From a virus: a DNA stretch of 5,999 nt. Positions 1-5,999 of the stretch are shown here, piece after piece (within the stretch, counting starts at the first letter, position 1; each line of letters opens with the position of its first letter). The notes below the pieces were generated by a model. The model saw nothing but the letters and a program-made list of their open reading frames with translations. It was not told where the DNA came from and made no database searches. The stretch lies in IMG/VR virus record IMGVR_UViG_3300029904_000133, positions 1 to 5,999 of that record; one strand, given 5' to 3'. The translations under genes and the position numbers were made by a program.

Positions 1-99
1 TTTTTCGTGATGTACCACATGCAGAGCAAGTTGCAGACGATCGGATAGCCAATATTTGAGATTGCCGTGACGATACTATCCATTCATTTCCCTCCTTTC
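1..99. repeat. Terminal direct repeat, copy 1 (identical to 5901..5999). It marks a circular molecule of 5900 nt.
   Basis: Base-by-base comparison shows 1..99 equals 5901..5999. Position 100 continues into unique sequence. On the minus strand, 1..83 duplicates the first 27 codons plus 2 nt of the gene at 5798..5983, and 84..99 duplicates its RBS. Confidence 0.95.
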
Positions 100-103
100 T
101 TTG

Positions 104-137
104 ATTATATTGTAACGCAAAATTTGTAGAAAAAACA
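104..137 (-). promoter_or_regulatory. Putative sigma70/sigA-type promoter for the leftward operon that starts with the 61-aa gene
   Basis: The minus strand reads ...GACTGTTTTTTCTACAAATTTTGCGTTACAATATAATCAAAGAAAGGAGGGAAATGAATG. There is a perfect TATAAT (109..104) and an overlapping TACAAT (114..109). The -35 candidates are weak (TTTCTA 132..127). The upstream region is A/T-rich, and the RBS and ATG of the first gene follow directly. Confidence 0.35.
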
Positions 138-211
138 GTCTTGTCTTTTTCTCCCGGATGTGTGAAAATTGTTCTTTCGGTGATTGTGTTGATTGTCAGC
201 GTCCTGAAAGG

Positions 212-258
212 CCCGGCGAGCGGCGGTGTACCTAACAGGGCGGCGGGCCGTCGCCGGG
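212..258. other. GC-rich long-loop inverted repeat in the large intergenic region
   Basis: CCCGGCGA (212..219) is complementary to TCGCCGGG (251..258). An alternative pairing is GGCCCG (210..215) with CGGGCC (244..249). This part of the intergenic spacer is strongly GC-rich. Confidence 0.4.
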
Positions 259-290
259 AGCGTCCGGTCTGAGTAGCTTTTATTTTTTAC

Positions 291-338
291 AAATAAGTAA
301 AACACCCCTCCTCTTGCCCCGCAGGGGCAAGGGAGGGG
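291..338 (-). terminator. Rho-independent terminator candidate downstream of the Rep gene
   Basis: The hairpin spans 305..338. It has 8 bp plus 7 bp of mostly G:C pairs with one bulged T (312) and a 3-nt loop (321..323). On the minus strand it is followed directly by TGTTTTACTTATTTGT (304..). It lies about 90 nt after the Rep stop codon at 426. Confidence 0.6.
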
Positions 339-342
339 GTTT

Positions 343-2370: not shown

Positions 2371-4188
2371 CTATACTCTTTCGAGTCCTGGAATGCTGTG
2401 AACTGGCATCATTCTCGTATGGTTATTTCCGAAAAAGAAATTTCCGAAAATCTGCGGCACTTTTGCGGTCGGTTCGATTGCAAGTGATCTGCTGACATTT
2501 GTTGGATCTTCTTTCAGCCATTCTGCTGACATAGTCGGTTCCTCAGTGTAGTTGTCTGACCACGTCCATGGTGAAAGCCCTCCTTGAATGTTCGGTCTGA
2601 TCGCTCCTGTGATTTGATTCGGTACATATTTGTATTCTGCCCCATACTCCTGATATCCCCAGATTGGATAGTTCTCTCCGTATGCATCTCGGAGCGGCAC
2701 AACTGTTGTTTCATCAGCATACAGCTCATATTTGTACACCGGCACGTCTCCGATATTTGCGTATTGCGGCATATAGAAATCGTCGAGAACTTTCCGCGTC
2801 CACTGACGCCGGATGCCCTGCGAATAGCTGTGATTGTATCTTGCTACGCCTACTGCCATCAGCCATCCATGCTCGAGAAAACTCTTTGTGAACGCGTGTG
2901 GTTTATCGATATTAGTGAGCGATCGTCCCGCAATGTTTCCCTGCGGTGTTGTCCCCTCTGCTGACCCTGATGTCTGCACGACTTCCGCAATTCTGATTGT
3001 AGTGTGCTGGATTCCGAGAAGTTCAGATCTTCCCGTTTCGATGTCCGGCCCGTCTACTCCAAAAAATCCTAAAAGGAAGTTCTGATATCGGTTCCCGCAC
3101 CTTGCGCTAACTTCTGCGATCTGCTGCTTTGCGATTGACTTTCTTAAGTTTGCAATCGTAAAACTGTTAATGAATCCCGGGTTCGCTTTTTTCGTTTCTC
3201 CTGAGAGATCAACGACAAGGTTTGATGGAACTAGTGCTTTAGTCCCCGCCATGTTTTCTGTAGTGCTGGTTATCCATGGACCCTCTGCTATTTTACCGTT
3301 TAACGGATCAGGTGAAATATCTCTGACTCCGAATGCCGCTCTGTATGCCTGTCCGATTGTTCCGACACTTTCACCATCTTTGTCCTGCCATTCGACTGGA
3401 TAATCTGCTGGCAGTGCATTTTTTCCTGCATTTGTTGTGTTGACATTGAGCACAAGTCCGCGCAGCCCATCAAGAAGATTGATGTCATCTGCTCTTTGCG
3501 GCTGAGGTAATACGCTTGTGAAATAGTCATGCTTTTTGTTCGCTTTGAGCGGTCTTCCTCCCTTGACCGGATCTTCAGCGTCGTAGTTGACGTCTCCGTT
3601 CCCGAAATCTACAAGAATTTCGTTGTCATAATTAACGTCCCTGAACCAGTCATTGTAGACTTTTCCGTACATACGGAACGGCAGTGCGTTGATCGCGATC
3701 TGCTGAGATCCGAGTTCCTGTTCTGTGCTTAATGGTAATCCGAAGTAATCCCAGATCGTATTAAGTCCGTCATCTCTTTTTGCGAATCCCCGCATCCTGA
3801 GTTCCGGCAGTCTGACCGGTGTTTTATCGAGCCATGCGCTTGCTGTTTCTCCGCAGAATGCTTTCCATCCGTCCCACAGAAGTCGGTTCGGACAGTAGAA
3901 CCAGTAGATATCGAACTCAAGGCTATCGTATGGTACTACTGCTAATGTCTGCATTCTCAACGCGAAATTACAGTTCATGTCTACCGTGTCGTTCGGAAGG
4001 ATTTCCTCGATATAGATTGGGACGATGTCTCCGACTTGAAACCCTGTCGCCAGTGTGCTATTTCTCGCGAACCTGGATCTCTTCATCAGACTTGGGTCCG
4101 TGCCGCGAGTCTCACTGAAATTATAGTTACTATTCCTGATCTCCTGACTCTGCGCTCTGCTCCGGCTTTCTGATTTCTTTGCGCTCAT
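2371..4188 (-). CDS. VP1: Major capsid protein (Microviridae VP1 / F-like), 605 aa
   Basis: It is the largest ORF. The N-terminal signature is NFSE...KRSRFARNSTLATGFQVGDIVPIYIEEILPNDTV, matching the conserved microvirus MCP pattern (RS.F...T.F..G.L.PI...EVLPGDT). The RBS AAGGAG lies 8 nt before the ATG at 4188. The gene overlaps the upstream gene by 59 nt. Confidence 0.92.
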   Translation of the reverse strand: MSAKKSESRSRAQSQEIRNSNYNFSETRGTDPSLMKRSRFARNSTLATGFQVGDIVPIYIEEILPNDTVDMNCNFALRMQTLAVVPYDSLEFDIYWFYCPNRLLWDGWKAFCGETASAWLDKTPVRLPELRMRGFAKRDDGLNTIWDYFGLPLSTEQELGSQQIAINALPFRMYGKVYNDWFRDVNYDNEILVDFGNGDVNYDAEDPVKGGRPLKANKKHDYFTSVLPQPQRADDINLLDGLRGLVLNVNTTNAGKNALPADYPVEWQDKDGESVGTIGQAYRAAFGVRDISPDPLNGKIAEGPWITSTTENMAGTKALVPSNLVVDLSGETKKANPGFINSFTIANLRKSIAKQQIAEVSARCGNRYQNFLLGFFGVDGPDIETGRSELLGIQHTTIRIAEVVQTSGSAEGTTPQGNIAGRSLTNIDKPHAFTKSFLEHGWLMAVGVARYNHSYSQGIRRQWTRKVLDDFYMPQYANIGDVPVYKYELYADETTVVPLRDAYGENYPIWGYQEYGAEYKYVPNQITGAIRPNIQGGLSPWTWSDNYTEEPTMSAEWLKEDPTNVSRSLAIEPTAKVPQIFGNFFFGNNHTRMMPVHSIPGLERV

Positions 4189-5145: not shown

Positions 5146-5480
5146 GATCGCCGCCTTTCTTCCGTCCAGATCACGACGGATGTGACTTCTTCTCCGATCT
5201 TAGCCGCTTCATAGGCTGCTCGGATTTGTCCTGCACAGTATCCCGCGTATGCTTGATTATGGCGTCTTGCCAGATTTCCCTCTCTTGCCGATTTTTCATA
5301 CCAGGCTTTCAGCTCCGTGCTATCGATCGGAAACGTTCTCTGCACTTCGATCTGGTTAATCTCTGCGGCGGTACATCCTGCTTCTTTCAGAATCTTGAGC
5401 GGAGTCAGCAGCTTCTCCCTGTCCGCCTTGTGAATTTTTATGGTTGGCAGGTTTGACCGCCATAGCAGATAGCGTGTCAT
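5136..5480 (-). CDS. Hypothetical protein, 114 aa
   Basis: GGAGGG lies 9 nt upstream of the ATG at 5480. That ATG overlaps the TGA of the 38-aa ORF (ATGA). The segment LKILKEAGCTAAEINQIE loosely resembles a helix-turn-helix, but this is not diagnostic. Confidence 0.65.
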   Translation of the reverse strand: MTRYLLWRSNLPTIKIHKADREKLLTPLKILKEAGCTAAEINQIEVQRTFPIDSTELKAWYEKSAREGNLARRHNQAYAGYCAGQIRAAYEAAKIGEEVTSVVIWTEERRRSWQ

Positions 5481-5593
5481 AATCTTGTCCCTCCTCTGCT
5501 CACCAGGGACGCTCCGTTTGCTTTGCGCTGACGGTTCGCCGTCTTTTTAAAGATTGCCTTGTCGCGCCTTTTGTTGGTTTTCTTTCCTTTCAT
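5477..5593 (-). CDS. Small, highly basic DNA-binding/packaging protein candidate (phiX174 J / gokushovirus VP8-like), 38 aa. It is not in the supplied ORF track.
   Basis: My hand translation of the minus strand is MKGKKTNKRRDKAIFKKTANRQRKANGASLVSRGGTRL*. It has 14 Lys/Arg and 1 acidic residue. The segment DKAIFKKTANRQRKAN resembles the (R/K)LF.KTA...K.N pattern I recall from small basic microvirus proteins. The start lies 2 nt after the upstream stop, with AGGAGGAAAAG upstream. The stop overlaps the next ATG (ATGA). Confidence 0.6.
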   Translation of the reverse strand: MKGKKTNKRRDKAIFKKTANRQRKANGASLVSRGGTRL

Positions 5594-5595
5594 GA

Positions 5596-5805
5596 TTACA
5601 CTTTTCCTCCTGTGATCTTGATTTCATAGTACTCAAGCGGGTAATAGTGACCAAATCCGTCCGTGGTTCTTACTCTCAGATACGGCAGGTTTCCATCGAT
5701 ATTGTCGGTGTTTTCAAATGCCGCCTCTTCGTAGTCTCCCGGGAGATAAATAACTTCCTCGTCTCTTCTTCTTAACTCGATTGTCATTCCCTTTAATTCA
5801 ACCAT
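5596..5805 (-). CDS. Hypothetical acidic protein, 69 aa
   Basis: The start was moved from 5853 (no RBS, 56-nt overlap with the upstream gene) to the ATG at 5805, which has AAAGGA 9 nt upstream and an 8-nt overlap with the upstream stop. I recognise no motif. The Met six codons further downstream cannot be excluded as the start. Confidence 0.55.
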   Translation of the reverse strand: MVELKGMTIELRRRDEEVIYLPGDYEEAAFENTDNIDGNLPYLRVRTTDGFGHYYPLEYYEIKITGGKV

Positions 5806-5983
5806 CGTTTTCCATCCTTTCTCGCAGATTATCAACTGCGTTCGTAACTCCATCCAGTGCGGACTGGAGTCTTGTTAATGTGTTGTTCATCTGATCGTCT
5901 TTTTTCGTGATGTACCACATGCAGAGCAAGTTGCAGACGATCGGATAGCCAATATTTGAGATTGCCGTGACGATACTATCCAT
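5798..5983 (-). CDS. Small N-terminal single-pass membrane protein, YvrJ-family-like, 61 aa. It is a candidate lysis or holin-like protein.
   Basis: It has the best RBS in the genome (GAAAGGAGGG, 6-nt spacer) and is the first gene after the putative promoter. Residues about 4-25 (IVTAISNIGYPIVCNLLCMWYI) form a hydrophobic helix followed by KKDD and an amphipathic, coiled-coil-like tail. The N-terminal pattern (..I.NIGYPIV....L) resembles the YvrJ small membrane proteins of Bacillota and their phages as I recall them. Confidence 0.7.
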   Translation of the reverse strand: MDSIVTAISNIGYPIVCNLLCMWYITKKDDQMNNTLTRLQSALDGVTNAVDNLRERMENDG

Positions 5984-5999
5984 TCATTTCCCTCCTTTC
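5901..5999. repeat. Terminal direct repeat, copy 2 (identical to 1..99)
   Basis: Exact 99-nt identity with the window start. This fits a fixed k-mer overlap left by an assembler on a circular contig. Confidence 0.95.

What the first reader, a model, noticed from the sequence alone, without database searches (positions are those of the whole stretch)
5798..5983. First gene of the operon encodes a YvrJ-like single-pass membrane protein, a candidate microvirus lysis gene
As far as I know, outside the phiX174 group (protein E) most microviruses have no identified lysis function. This 61-aa protein has one N-terminal transmembrane helix, a charged juxtamembrane KKDD and an amphipathic tail. That architecture is shared by small holins and by single-gene lysis proteins. 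It carries the strongest RBS in the genome. Its N-terminus resembles YvrJ-family proteins, which I recall being common in Bacillota and in their phages near lysis cassettes.
Basis: partly seen in the sequence, partly recalled or inferred. Interest (0 to 1): 0.65.

Follow-up and report, generated by a model that had tools for sequence, protein, structure and literature searches.

The report
Holin-like membrane gene in a microvirus
This small single-stranded-DNA phage carries a conserved 61-residue membrane protein from a family that, in small tailed phages and in a few other microviruses, sits directly next to cell-wall-degrading enzymes, so it is very probably the phage's host-killing (holin-type) lysis gene, here without any enzyme partner.

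Summary
The window is a circular 5,900-nt microvirus genome. ORF 5983..5798 (minus strand) is a real 61-aa gene under purifying selection (dN/dS 0.07-0.16). It has one N-terminal hydrophobic helix, KKDD, and a heptad-repeat tail. It has the strongest Shine-Dalgarno site in the genome and is the first gene after the Rep terminator.

It does not reach Pfam YvrJ (no hit at E<=1; cut-off 29.5 bits). Profile-profile comparison still shows remote homology (91.5-97.9%). Its real family is a very large phage clade (more than 7,800 clusters) that matches phrog_4898 "holin".

In 37 non-redundant small podovirus loci, the next gene gave 24 hits to 10 different peptidoglycan-hydrolase families. Three other microviruses (MG945503, MG945658, capybara Cap3_SP_389) have an unannotated family member directly upstream of an Amidase_3 or GH25 lysin.

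The window clade, L144 and phi-CA82 have the gene but no detectable lysin. Bona fide bacterial YvrJ genes sit next to sigma factors instead.

Best reading (0.6): a holin-type lysis protein acquired from podoviruses, probably lysing through membrane collapse and host autolysins. No member has been tested experimentally.

The parts
5798..5983 (-). ORF61 coding sequence (61 aa plus TGA stop at 5798-5800): the holin-like single-pass membrane protein
   Evidence: ORF list and translation; 10 close homologs; dN/dS 0.07-0.16; phrog_4898 'holin' E=4.8e-6; 87 bits against the non-microvirus family HMM.
5906..5974 (-). Residues 4-26 (IVTAISNIGYPIVCNLLCMWYIT): predicted transmembrane helix containing the family's G-[FY]-P-I motif
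   Evidence: KD19 maximum 1.63; residues 12-28 invariant in the close clade; G12, P14 and I15 nearly invariant across 80 family members; dN about 0-0.03 in this half.
5894..5905 (-). Residues 27-30, KKDD: charged juxtamembrane segment. With the acidic N-terminus (M-D-S), the positive-inside rule predicts an N-out/C-in topology
   Evidence: Sequence; K27, K28 and D29 invariant in the clade; K is the majority residue at position 27 in the family. The topology is an inference.
5801..5893 (-). Residues 31-61: helical tail with a 4-3-4-3 heptad pattern (M32 L36 L39 L43 V46 V50 L53 M57), a putative cytoplasmic coiled-coil oligomerisation domain
   Evidence: Heptad positions and muH 0.39-0.44; heptad positions invariant while other tail positions vary; the family profile's tail matches only coiled-coil heptad repeats in the PDB; AlphaFold models it as helix.
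5991..5998 (-). Shine-Dalgarno AAAGGAGG, 7 nt upstream of the ATG (same bases as 91-98 in the terminal overlap)
   Evidence: Strongest anti-SD duplex in the genome, -16.8 kcal/mol; SD and 7-nt spacing conserved in L004 and L005.
104..109 (-). TATAAT (-10-like) box 5 nt upstream of the AAAGGAGG SD (21 nt upstream of the ATG); no good -35 hexamer
   Evidence: Sequence; TATAATATAAT conserved in L004 and L005. The sigma-70 scan did not call a full promoter here, so promoter function is inferred only.
300..342 (-). GC-rich hairpin followed by a U-rich run (288-299), downstream of Rep: terminator-like element that separates the Rep end of the transcription unit from the ORF61 start
   Evidence: MFE -33.8 kcal/mol, z = -5.15 against shuffles.
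5596..5805 (-). Next gene (69 aa from ATG 5805; unknown function). Its start overlaps the ORF61 stop (ATGGTTGA), suggesting translational coupling
   Evidence: SD duplex -12.6 kcal/mol at ATG 5805 versus -0.9 at ATG 5853; the same junction is conserved in L004; no Pfam, PHROG, NCBIfam or PDB match.

Best explanation
ORF61 is a genuine, highly expressed gene. It encodes a 61-residue bitopic membrane protein with a short acidic N-terminus outside, one TM helix carrying the G-[FY]-P-I motif, a KK anchor inside, and a cytoplasmic heptad-repeat helix. It belongs to a very large family of small phage membrane proteins (PHROG 4898, annotated 'holin') that is a remote homolog of the bacterial YvrJ family. 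The most likely function is the holin, or membrane-lesion, step of lysis. In this model the protein accumulates in the cytoplasmic membrane and oligomerises through its TM helix and coiled-coil tail. At a critical level it permeabilises or depolarises the membrane. In small podoviruses and in at least three other microvirus lineages, that step would release the cytoplasmic, signal-less endolysin encoded immediately downstream. This genome and its closest relatives have no recognisable endolysin. Lysis here is therefore inferred to depend on membrane collapse plus host autolysins, which in Gram-positive bacteria are unleashed by loss of proton-motive force. What is shown: gene reality, architecture, family membership, and the family's genomic association with lysins, including inside microviruses. 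What is inferred: topology, oligomerisation, holin activity, autolysin dependence, and a Gram-positive host.
For: The gene is real and constrained. It is the only TM-capable product on the coding strand. Family membership: phrog_4898 at E=4.8e-6 full-length, with 79/80 relatives also matching; 126 cluster representatives of 46-108 aa and more than 7,857 clusters; 87 bits against the non-microvirus HMM. Association with lysins: in 37 non-redundant podovirus loci the +1 gene gave 24 catalytic-domain hits in 10 PG-hydrolase families (Amidase_2/3/5, GH25, M15_3, Phage_lysozyme, CHAP, glucosaminidase, NlpC/P60, ELLD), plus 11 CW_7 and 5 SPOR hits. CpV1 gp14 'holin' abuts the amidase gp15. Inside microviruses, the order is family ORF then Amidase_3 in MG945503 and MG945658, and family ORF then a 74-aa ORF then GH25 in Cap3_SP_389. 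Those lysins start without a hydrophobic signal, so they would need a holin. The architecture matches the single-TM-plus-amphipathic-helix BhlA/TpeE holins, whose TM alone is bactericidal (PMC9527704). Volozhantsev et al. singled out the equivalent single-TM peptide as the only holin-like product of C. perfringens podoviruses (PMC3362512).
Against: No member of this family has been tested experimentally, and all 'holin' labels are computational. The window genome, L004, L005, L144 and phi-CA82 encode no detectable PG hydrolase. In some podoviruses the gene sits between the packaging ATPase and the capsid or connector genes with no adjacent lysin. Being the first gene, with the strongest RBS in a genome that has no known temporal control, is the opposite of the weakly expressed phiX174 E and could trigger lysis prematurely. 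Hydrophobicity of the TM segment is marginal (1.63). The bona fide YvrJ relatives are linked to sigma factors rather than lysins. The host is unknown: the VP1 search of reference genomes found nothing, and the family also occurs in Salmonella podoviruses.
Confidence: 0.6

Rival explanations
1. ORF61 is a membrane protein with a non-lytic role. Candidates include superinfection exclusion, anchoring of replication or assembly to the membrane (as phi29 p16.7 does with an N-terminal TM plus a coiled coil), or non-lytic export. Under this reading, lysis of this microvirus is caused by something else.
For: Strong, early, first-in-operon expression suits a stoichiometric or early-acting membrane factor better than a lysis timer. 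There is no endolysin in this genome. Some podoviruses have the gene away from any lysin, next to packaging or capsid genes. Bacterial YvrJ genes sit beside sigma factors. The coiled-coil tail is replaceable between close relatives (L144).
Against: The +1 gene is a cell-wall hydrolase of many unrelated folds in most non-redundant podovirus loci and in three microvirus lineages. This pattern is typical of holin-endolysin cassettes and is not expected for a replication anchor. No other TM candidate for lysis exists on the coding strand.
Confidence: 0.2
2. ORF61 is a canonical holin that works with a phage-encoded but unrecognised cell-wall-active partner among the small unassigned ORFs: the translationally coupled 69-aa product, the 114-aa product or the 98-aa product.
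For: The ORF61 stop overlaps the start of the 69-aa gene (ATGGTTGA), and that junction is conserved in L004. In other family contexts a lysin occupies that position. Three ORFs have no assignable function.
Against: None of these ORFs matches any PG-hydrolase profile or solved structure, even at E<=1. At 69-114 aa they are smaller than almost all known lysin catalytic domains. L005 has a different sequence at the +1 position.
Confidence: 0.12
3. ORF61 is an orthologous YvrJ protein doing whatever bacterial YvrJ does. That function is unknown but is genomically tied to YvrI/TcdR-like sigma factors, so ORF61 could be a regulatory or stress-response membrane peptide hijacked by the virus.
For: hhalign gives 91.5-97.9% against bona fide YvrJ, with a shared N-x-G-F-P-I motif and a following heptad helix. 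62 of 80 relatives give sub-threshold Pfam YvrJ hits.
Against: It fails Pfam's gathering score: no hit for the window protein, and 12-23 bits against 29.5 for relatives. There is no sigma factor gene in the genome. The phage clade has its own motifs (W-Y-I-x-K, NNT) and its own lysin-linked context.
Confidence: 0.05
4. The ORF is a chance open frame or an assembly artefact, not a gene.
For: It is short (61 codons) and its hydrophobicity is marginal.
Against: Synonymous changes far outnumber non-synonymous ones (dN/dS 0.07-0.16). The SD and its spacing are conserved. The same gene is found in independent samples and in thousands of related clusters.
Confidence: 0.01

Closest known systems
PHROG 4898 ('holin'): small single-TM proteins of phi29-like and Guelinviridae podoviruses, e.g. 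Clostridium phage CpV1 gp14 (YP_009829940)
   Same: Full-length profile match (E=4.8e-6; 79/80 relatives match). Same size (about 55-85 aa), same G-F/Y-P-I TM helix, basic juxtamembrane residues and heptad tail. Usually the first gene of a rightward block.
   Different: The host genome is an ssDNA microvirus, not a dsDNA podovirus. No endolysin follows it here. The window clade has Y for F in the motif and G-V-T in place of the family's N-N-T. The 'holin' label of the PHROG is itself untested.
Holin-like gene plus lysin cassettes in other microviruses: MG945503.1 and MG945658.1 (Amidase_3), capybara microvirus Cap3_SP_389 MK496778.1 (GH25)
   Same: Same protein family (49-83 bits against the non-microvirus HMM). 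In MG945503 and MG945658 it occupies the same slot just after the Rep/VP4 gene.
   Different: Those genomes carry a lysin directly downstream; the window does not. Their VP1 proteins are only 34-36% identical to the window's. Their family proteins are 26-32% identical to ORF61 and closer to podoviral copies, up to 63%. The family ORFs are unannotated in all three records.
Pfam YvrJ (PF12841), e.g. Priestia megaterium WP_013060117, Clostridium felsineum WP_077851517
   Same: Remote homology by profile-profile comparison (91.5% and 97.9%). Shared I-x-x-I-x-N-x-G-F-P-I start of the helix and a following L-x-x-L heptad helix. Similar length.
   Different: It does not reach the Pfam cut-off. YvrJ has Y-L-L-V-R-x-E where the phage clade has W-Y-I-x-K-x-D/E. 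The bacterial genes abut sigma-70-family sigma factors, not lysins. The function of YvrJ is unknown; I found no functional paper among 6 hits.
BhlA/UviB/TpeE holin-like peptides (Pfam PF10960, TCDB 1.E.27)
   Same: Same architecture: about 70 aa, one N-terminal TM helix, then an amphipathic or coiled helix. Adjacent to endolysins in Bacillus, Brevibacillus, Paenibacillus and Clostridium phages. Holin or bactericidal activity has been shown for BhlA (PMC9527704). It is the best experimentally grounded mechanistic analogue.
   Different: No convincing sequence relationship: hhalign gives 5% for the microvirus clade and 50% for the wider family. Only 11/80 relatives give weak Pfam hits. This is a resemblance in how the protein would work, not membership.
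phiX174 protein E (single-gene lysis, MraY inhibitor)
   Same: A small microvirus protein with an N-terminal TM helix, proposed to cause lysis without a phage muralytic enzyme.
   Different: E is overprinted inside gene D, weakly expressed, and acts by inhibiting MraY (established knowledge). ORF61 is a free-standing, strongly expressed gene with no Pfam match to the E family, and it belongs to a holin-context family.

Membership tests
Pfam YvrJ (PF12841) | Whole-protein score at or above Pfam's gathering cut-off (29.5 bits) | tested here: not met
   No YvrJ hit for ORF61 even at E<=1, and none for phi-CA82 p5. Other family members score 12.2-23.1 bits, often over only model positions 1-15. 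None of the 120 best relatives has a precomputed Pfam domain.
Pfam YvrJ (PF12841) | Homology detectable by profile-profile comparison with bona fide (PGAP/Pfam-labelled) YvrJ proteins | tested here: met
   hhalign of A1 versus A6: 91.5%, E=8.7e-7. A2 versus A6: 97.9%, E=3.6e-13. With the intermediate Lysinibacillus protein included: 96.3% and 98.9%. The YvrJ alignment is small (6 sequences).
Pfam YvrJ (PF12841) | Genomic context of the bacterial family: adjacent to a sigma-70-family (YvrI-type) sigma factor gene | tested here: not met
   The three retrieved YvrJ loci and the Lysinibacillus intermediate all abut a sigma factor gene. The window encodes none.
PHROG 4898 ('holin') / small-podovirus membrane protein clade | Full-length significant match to the family profile | tested here: met
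   phrog_4898 E=4.8e-6, residues 1-52 on profile positions 1-53 of 62. 87.1 bits, E=1.3e-26, against an HMM built from 74 non-microvirus-clade members.
PHROG 4898 ('holin') / small-podovirus membrane protein clade | Conserved motif G-[FY]-P-I, then 7 residues, then W-Y-I-x-K, in a 55-85 aa protein | tested here: met
   ORF61 has G12-Y-P-I15 ... W23-Y-I-T-K27. The back-translated motif retrieved 117 true members out of 120 viral loci.
Holins (functional class) | Small protein with at least one TM helix and a charged hydrophilic C-terminal domain | tested here: met
   KD19 1.63 over residues 4-22. KKDD and a tail with net charge -2. AlphaFold models it as all-helical. No dedicated TM predictor was available.
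Holins (functional class) | Gene adjacent to an endolysin gene | tested here: not met
   No PG hydrolase anywhere in the window by Pfam, PHROGs, NCBIfam or PDB sequence search. The feature is met for homologs in podoviruses and in three other microviruses.
Holins (functional class) | Expression permeabilises the cytoplasmic membrane, is lethal, and releases endolysin | not testable with these tools
   This requires expression experiments. I found no published test of any family member.
BhlA/UviB holin-like family (PF10960) | Significant profile match to BhlA | tested here: not met
   No Pfam hit for ORF61. hhalign of A1 versus BhlA alignment A7 gives 5%, and A2 versus A7 gives 50%. 11/80 relatives give weak hits, best 3.5e-5.
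phiX174 E-type single-gene lysis protein | Overprinted reading frame within another gene, and a match to the microvirus lysis protein E family | tested here: not met
   ORF61 is free-standing in its own slot and overlaps only 8 nt with the next gene. No Pfam hit to an E-type family at E<=1. No other coding-strand ORF has a TM-grade segment.

The most novel reading that the evidence does not exclude
A clade of gut microviruses (the window, L004, L005, L144, phi-CA82) lyses its host with an orphan holin. This is a podovirus-derived single-TM, coiled-coil protein that acts without any phage muralytic enzyme, by collapsing the membrane and letting host autolysins destroy the wall. That would be a third microvirus lysis strategy, alongside phiX174 E and the acquired-peptidase or endolysin route. 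More broadly, the holin(-endolysin) module would have moved repeatedly between dsDNA podoviruses (Duplodnaviria) and ssDNA microviruses (Monodnaviria). That contradicts the view that microviruses are genetically isolated, and it marks these microviruses as probable phages of Gram-positive Clostridia.
Probability: 0.35. Interest if true: 0.72.

Novelty: new member of a known kind. Interest (0 to 1): 0.55.

Why it matters
How microviruses outside the phiX174 group lyse their hosts is largely unknown. The literature I could search names only acquired peptidases as candidates (PMC3394797, PMC9239249) and describes microviruses as genetically isolated from the wider gene pool. In this work a conserved, strongly expressed gene of one microvirus clade is placed in a large phage membrane-protein family. 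That family's genomic behaviour is that of a holin. The same family, unannotated, forms complete holin-endolysin cassettes (Amidase_3, GH25) in three other deposited microviruses. This gives a concrete, clonable candidate for testing microvirus lysis. It indicates repeated gene flow between small podoviruses and microviruses. It hints at Gram-positive (Clostridia) hosts for these gut microviruses. It also raises the question of how a holin works alone. As a by-product it offers a functional lead for the uncharacterised bacterial YvrJ family, as a holin-like device under a dedicated sigma factor.

Tried and rejected
1. Direct Pfam and NCBIfam assignment of ORF61 found no YvrJ, no holin family and no NCBIfam hit. 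The family link had to be built through PHROGs and iterative profiles.

2. The search for related loci with the 80-sequence alignment failed because the alignment was too diverse. I replaced it with a back-translated motif scan.

3. Host inference was inconclusive. A VP1 search of 185,579 reference genomes found no relative. The motif scan of those genomes found 9 true members, all on short MAG contigs. Most were labelled Clostridia, but some were binned with Bacteroidales or Chlamydiaceae. Members also occur in Salmonella and Enterobacter podoviruses, so 'Gram-positive host' remains an inference.

4. The third large homology search, seeded with Priestia YvrJ, returned only 4 proteins. The YvrJ reference alignment is therefore small.

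5. I considered BhlA as the parent family and rejected it on hhalign.

6. The sigma-70 promoter scan found no full promoter upstream of ORF61. Only a conserved TATAAT box is present.

7. I searched for a hidden lysin or a second TM lysis protein. All coding-strand ORFs were screened by hydropathy, and the small ORFs were compared with profiles and PDB sequences. Nothing was found. Hydrophobic ORFs on the plus strand were disregarded as antisense artefacts.

8. PDB matches of the family profile to coronavirus spike HR1 and designed coiled coils were treated as heptad-repeat convergence, not homology.

9. The RefSeq label 'putative cell lysis protein' for phi-CA82 p9 was checked. The protein looks scaffold-like (weak Chlamy_scaf hit), and the original paper calls it hypothetical.

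10. The upstream out-of-frame ATG (mini-ORF MNG*) was considered as a regulatory feature and dropped, because it is absent from L004 and L005.

11. I did not run a fold search on the single-helix model, because it would be uninformative.
Full report
**1. What the window is.** The 5,999-nt window is a complete circular microvirus genome of 5,900 nt with a 99-nt assembly overlap, so 1-99 equals 5901-5999. All genes lie on the minus strand. In order they are:
- ORF61 (5983..5798)
- a 69-aa ORF (5805..5596)
- a 38-aa basic protein
- ORFs of 114, 98 and 96 aa
- a VP3-like scaffold protein
- VP1 (Phage_F, E=2.7e-99)
- VP2 (pilot protein)
- Rep (REP_ORF2-G2P)

The closest deposited genome is the turkey-gut microvirus phi-CA82, with VP1 58% and Rep 70% identical.

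**2. The observation.** It is correct at the stated coordinates.
- The ORF encodes MDSIVTAISNIGYPIVCNLLCMWYITKKDDQMNNTLTRLQSALDGVTNAVDNLRERMENDG.
- Hydropathy peaks at 1.63 over residues 4-22. That only just reaches the TM threshold, but no other coding-strand ORF of at least 30 aa comes close; the next best is 1.12.
- KKDD occupies residues 27-30.
- The tail is amphipathic (muH about 0.4). More precisely it is a heptad repeat, with hydrophobic residues at 32/36/39/43/46/50/53/57. These positions are invariant among close relatives while the other tail positions vary.
- AlphaFold, given an 80-sequence alignment, models one helix over residues 2-60 (pLDDT 73.7).
- The SD AAAGGAGG lies 7 nt before the ATG and gives the strongest anti-SD pairing in the genome: -16.8 kcal/mol versus -13.5 for VP1.
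- The gene follows a 342-nt intergenic region. That region holds a terminator-like hairpin after Rep (-33.8 kcal/mol, z=-5.2) and a conserved TATAAT box. No full sigma-70 promoter was called there.
- The next gene's ATG overlaps the ORF61 stop (ATGGTTGA), which suggests translational coupling.

**3. It is a real gene.**
- Ten homologs at 75-100% identity exist, with residues 12-28 invariant.
- Two of these are on independent microvirus contigs with the same gene order (L004 and L005).
- Pairwise dN/dS is 0.07-0.16 at dS 0.4-0.8, and the TM half is almost frozen.
- L144 is a further close genomic relative (Rep 93%, VP1 75-82%). It keeps the gene in the same slot, but the protein is only 45% identical. 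The TM half is conserved and the tail is replaced.

**4. Which family it belongs to.**
- ORF61 has no Pfam or NCBIfam hit, including no YvrJ hit at E<=1.
- It does match PHROG 4898 ('holin') over its full length (E=4.8e-6).
- A profile of the close clade, searched against 1.84 billion representatives, found 126 proteins. All are 46-108 aa and match end to end. They share the consensus ...IS-x-VGFPIV-x-C-x-x-LFWYI-x-K-x-DE...NNT...L.
- A second search with 80 of these sequences saturated at 7,857 clusters. None of the top 120 carries a Pfam label or an informative name.
- Of the 80 sequences, 79 match phrog_4898. 62 give sub-threshold YvrJ hits (best 1.8e-6), and 11 give weak BhlA hits.
- An HMM built only from the 74 members outside the microvirus clade scores ORF61 at 87 bits.

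**5. The YvrJ question.**
- Pfam's YvrJ cut-off is 29.5 bits. Phage-clade members score 12-23 bits, often only over the GFPI start of the model. ORF61 and phi-CA82 p5 score nothing.
- I retrieved bona fide PGAP-named YvrJ proteins from Priestia and Clostridium plasmids, for example MNSSDIVSLIGNVGFPIAVSIYLLVRIEGKIEALTTSINSL....
- Profile-profile comparison with these gives 91.5% (E=8.7e-7) for the microvirus clade and 97.9% (E=3.6e-13) for the wider family.
- So 'YvrJ-like' is right as remote homology, but ORF61 is not a YvrJ family member by the curated definition.
- The bacterial YvrJ genes lie beside sigma-70-family sigma factor genes, not beside lysins.
- BhlA/UviB is the experimentally supported single-TM holin-like family. 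It shares the architecture, but the sequence relationship is not convincing: 5% for the microvirus clade and 50% for the wider family.

**6. What the family does, judged from genomic context.**
Of these, 117 were true members, nearly all on 13-18-kb contigs. None had microvirus genes.
- In 37 non-redundant loci the usual layout is a phi29-type packaging ATPase gene on the opposite strand, then the family gene opening a rightward block.
- The gene immediately downstream gave 24 hits to 10 different peptidoglycan-hydrolase families: Amidase_2, Amidase_3, Amidase_5, GH25, M15_3, Phage_lysozyme, CHAP, glucosaminidase, NlpC/P60 and ELLD. It also gave 11 CW_7 and 5 SPOR wall-binding hits (two-gene window).
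- CpV1 gp14, labelled 'holin' in RefSeq, abuts the amidase gp15.
- A conserved small membrane protein next to interchangeable lysins is the standard signature of a holin.
- Volozhantsev et al. noted that the equivalent single-TM peptide is the only holin-like product of C. perfringens podoviruses. They did not test it (PMC3362512).
- There are exceptions. In some podoviruses, including Salmonella astrithr-like phages, the gene lies between the ATPase and the capsid or connector genes, with no adjacent lysin.

**7. The same module inside other microviruses.** This is the strongest new evidence.
- tblastn and the family HMM found unannotated members in several deposited microviruses.
- In MG945503 the family ORF (1049-1228) is followed at 1230 by an Amidase_3 (55.7 bits).
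- In MG945658 the family ORF (3223-3414) overlaps the start of an Amidase_3 (49.4 bits) that the depositor labelled 'similar to VP3'.
- In capybara microvirus Cap3_SP_389 the family ORF (2144-2332) is followed by a 74-aa ORF and then a GH25 muramidase (59.2 bits).
- These lysins have no N-terminal hydrophobic signal, so they need a holin.
- The microvirus copies are not monophyletic. MG945503's copy is 63% identical to podoviral copies. phi-CA82 p5 is closer to podoviral copies (48%) than to ORF61 (29%). The microvirus amidases are 38-40% identical to podoviral amidases in the same cassette position.
- Only about six of roughly 3,300 deposited microvirus records carry a detectable member.
- Together this indicates repeated transfer of the module between small podoviruses and microviruses.

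**8. What is unusual about the window clade.** The window, L004, L005, L144 and phi-CA82 have the holin-like gene but no recognisable peptidoglycan hydrolase. The RefSeq label 'putative cell lysis protein' on phi-CA82 p9 is unsupported. The protein is scaffold-like, and the original paper lists it as hypothetical.

**9. Mechanism.**
- What is shown: a conserved, strongly translated, single-helix membrane-type protein of a lysin-associated family.
- What is inferred: an N-out/C-in topology, from the acidic N-terminus and the KK after the helix. Also inferred are oligomerisation through the TM helix and the heptad tail, followed by membrane permeabilisation at a critical concentration.
- Without a phage lysin, the wall would be degraded by host autolysins released from proton-motive-force control. 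Two precedents are known to me and were not retrieved here: energised-membrane control of autolysis in Bacillus subtilis, and holin-triggered LytA in pneumococcal phages.
- BhlA's TM segment alone is bactericidal (PMC9527704).
- I put 0.6 on this reading.
- The main rival (0.2) is a non-lytic membrane role. Its support is the very strong, first-in-operon expression, the podoviral loci without adjacent lysins, and the sigma-factor context of true YvrJ.
- A hidden partner lysin among the small ORFs gets 0.12.

**10. Novelty and literature.**
- I found no paper that describes holin-like genes in microviruses.
- Roux et al. (PMC3394797) and Kirchberger et al. (PMC9239249) discuss only peptidases as lysis-associated accessory genes. 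Kirchberger et al. stress the genetic isolation of microviruses.
- The protein family itself is already catalogued, computationally, as a holin. So this is a new member of a known kind, found in an unexpected virus group, with an unusual orphan arrangement.
- Interest is moderate (0.55). It makes the long-standing question of non-phiX174 microvirus lysis directly testable for this clade. However, the function is still inferred and the host is unknown.

Noticed in passing
L126:2498-2668, L127:2501-2659, L130:1501-1659, L129:5307-5486: Every bona fide bacterial YvrJ gene retrieved (Priestia pBM500 and two Clostridium felsineum plasmids), plus an intermediate Lysinibacillus plasmid protein, sits directly beside a sigma-70-family sigma factor gene. 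This parallels the UviA (sigma factor) and UviB (BhlA holin) pairing described in PMC9527704. It suggests that YvrJ proper may be a holin-like export or lysis device under a dedicated sigma factor.
   Followed up: partly
L141:3411-3992 (MG945658.1) and L002:4969-5322 (phi-CA82 p9): Two likely misannotations in public records. The MG945658 feature 'similar to VP3' is an Amidase_3 lysin (49.4 bits). RefSeq's phi-CA82 p9 'putative cell lysis protein' gives only a weak Chlamy_scaf (scaffold) hit, and the original paper calls it hypothetical.
   Followed up: yes
L144:2676-2849 compared with window 5798-5983: L144 is a close genomic relative of the window (Rep 93%, VP1 75-82%), but its ORF61 homolog is only 45% identical. 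The TM half is conserved and the cytoplasmic tail is entirely different. This looks like tail replacement or very fast tail evolution at this locus.
   Followed up: partly
L128:4001-4207 (B. thuringiensis pBTHD789-4, 14.9 kb) and L142:2980-3168 (Salmonella phage astrithr): Family members also occur on ~15-kb B. thuringiensis plasmids (56 bits; a glucosaminidase-domain gene lies 1.7 kb downstream). They also occur in 11.5-kb Salmonella and Enterobacter podoviruses (61 bits; between the terminase and connector genes, with no adjacent lysin). The family is therefore not restricted to Clostridia phages or to Gram-positive hosts.
   Followed up: partly
window 1-99 and 5901-5999: The two ends of the window are an exact 99-nt direct repeat. 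This is the assembly overlap of a circular 5,900-nt genome, so the first 83 nt of the window duplicate the 5' part of ORF61.
   Followed up: yes
window 200-342, minus strand: The Rep-to-ORF61 intergenic region is strikingly GC-rich. It holds a very stable hairpin (300-342, -33.8 kcal/mol, z=-5.2) followed by a U-run, and a second GC-rich stretch (about 200-260) that I did not analyse. That stretch could be a replication-origin or complementary-strand-origin structure.
   Followed up: partly
alignment A2, profile positions 26-62: The family's tail profile matches coronavirus spike HR1 heptad repeats (E=1.5e-11 to an engineered 5-helix bundle) and designed coiled-coil barrels in the PDB. I interpret this as coiled-coil convergence. 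It does hint that the tail may form a multi-helix bundle.
   Followed up: no
window 5477-5593, minus strand: The 38-aa, very basic ORF (MKGKKTNKRRDKAIFKKTANRQRK...) matches phrog_10695 (E=2.6e-4). It corresponds in position to phi-CA82 p6 ('putative DNA binding protein') and is probably the J/VP8-like DNA-packaging protein.
   Followed up: no
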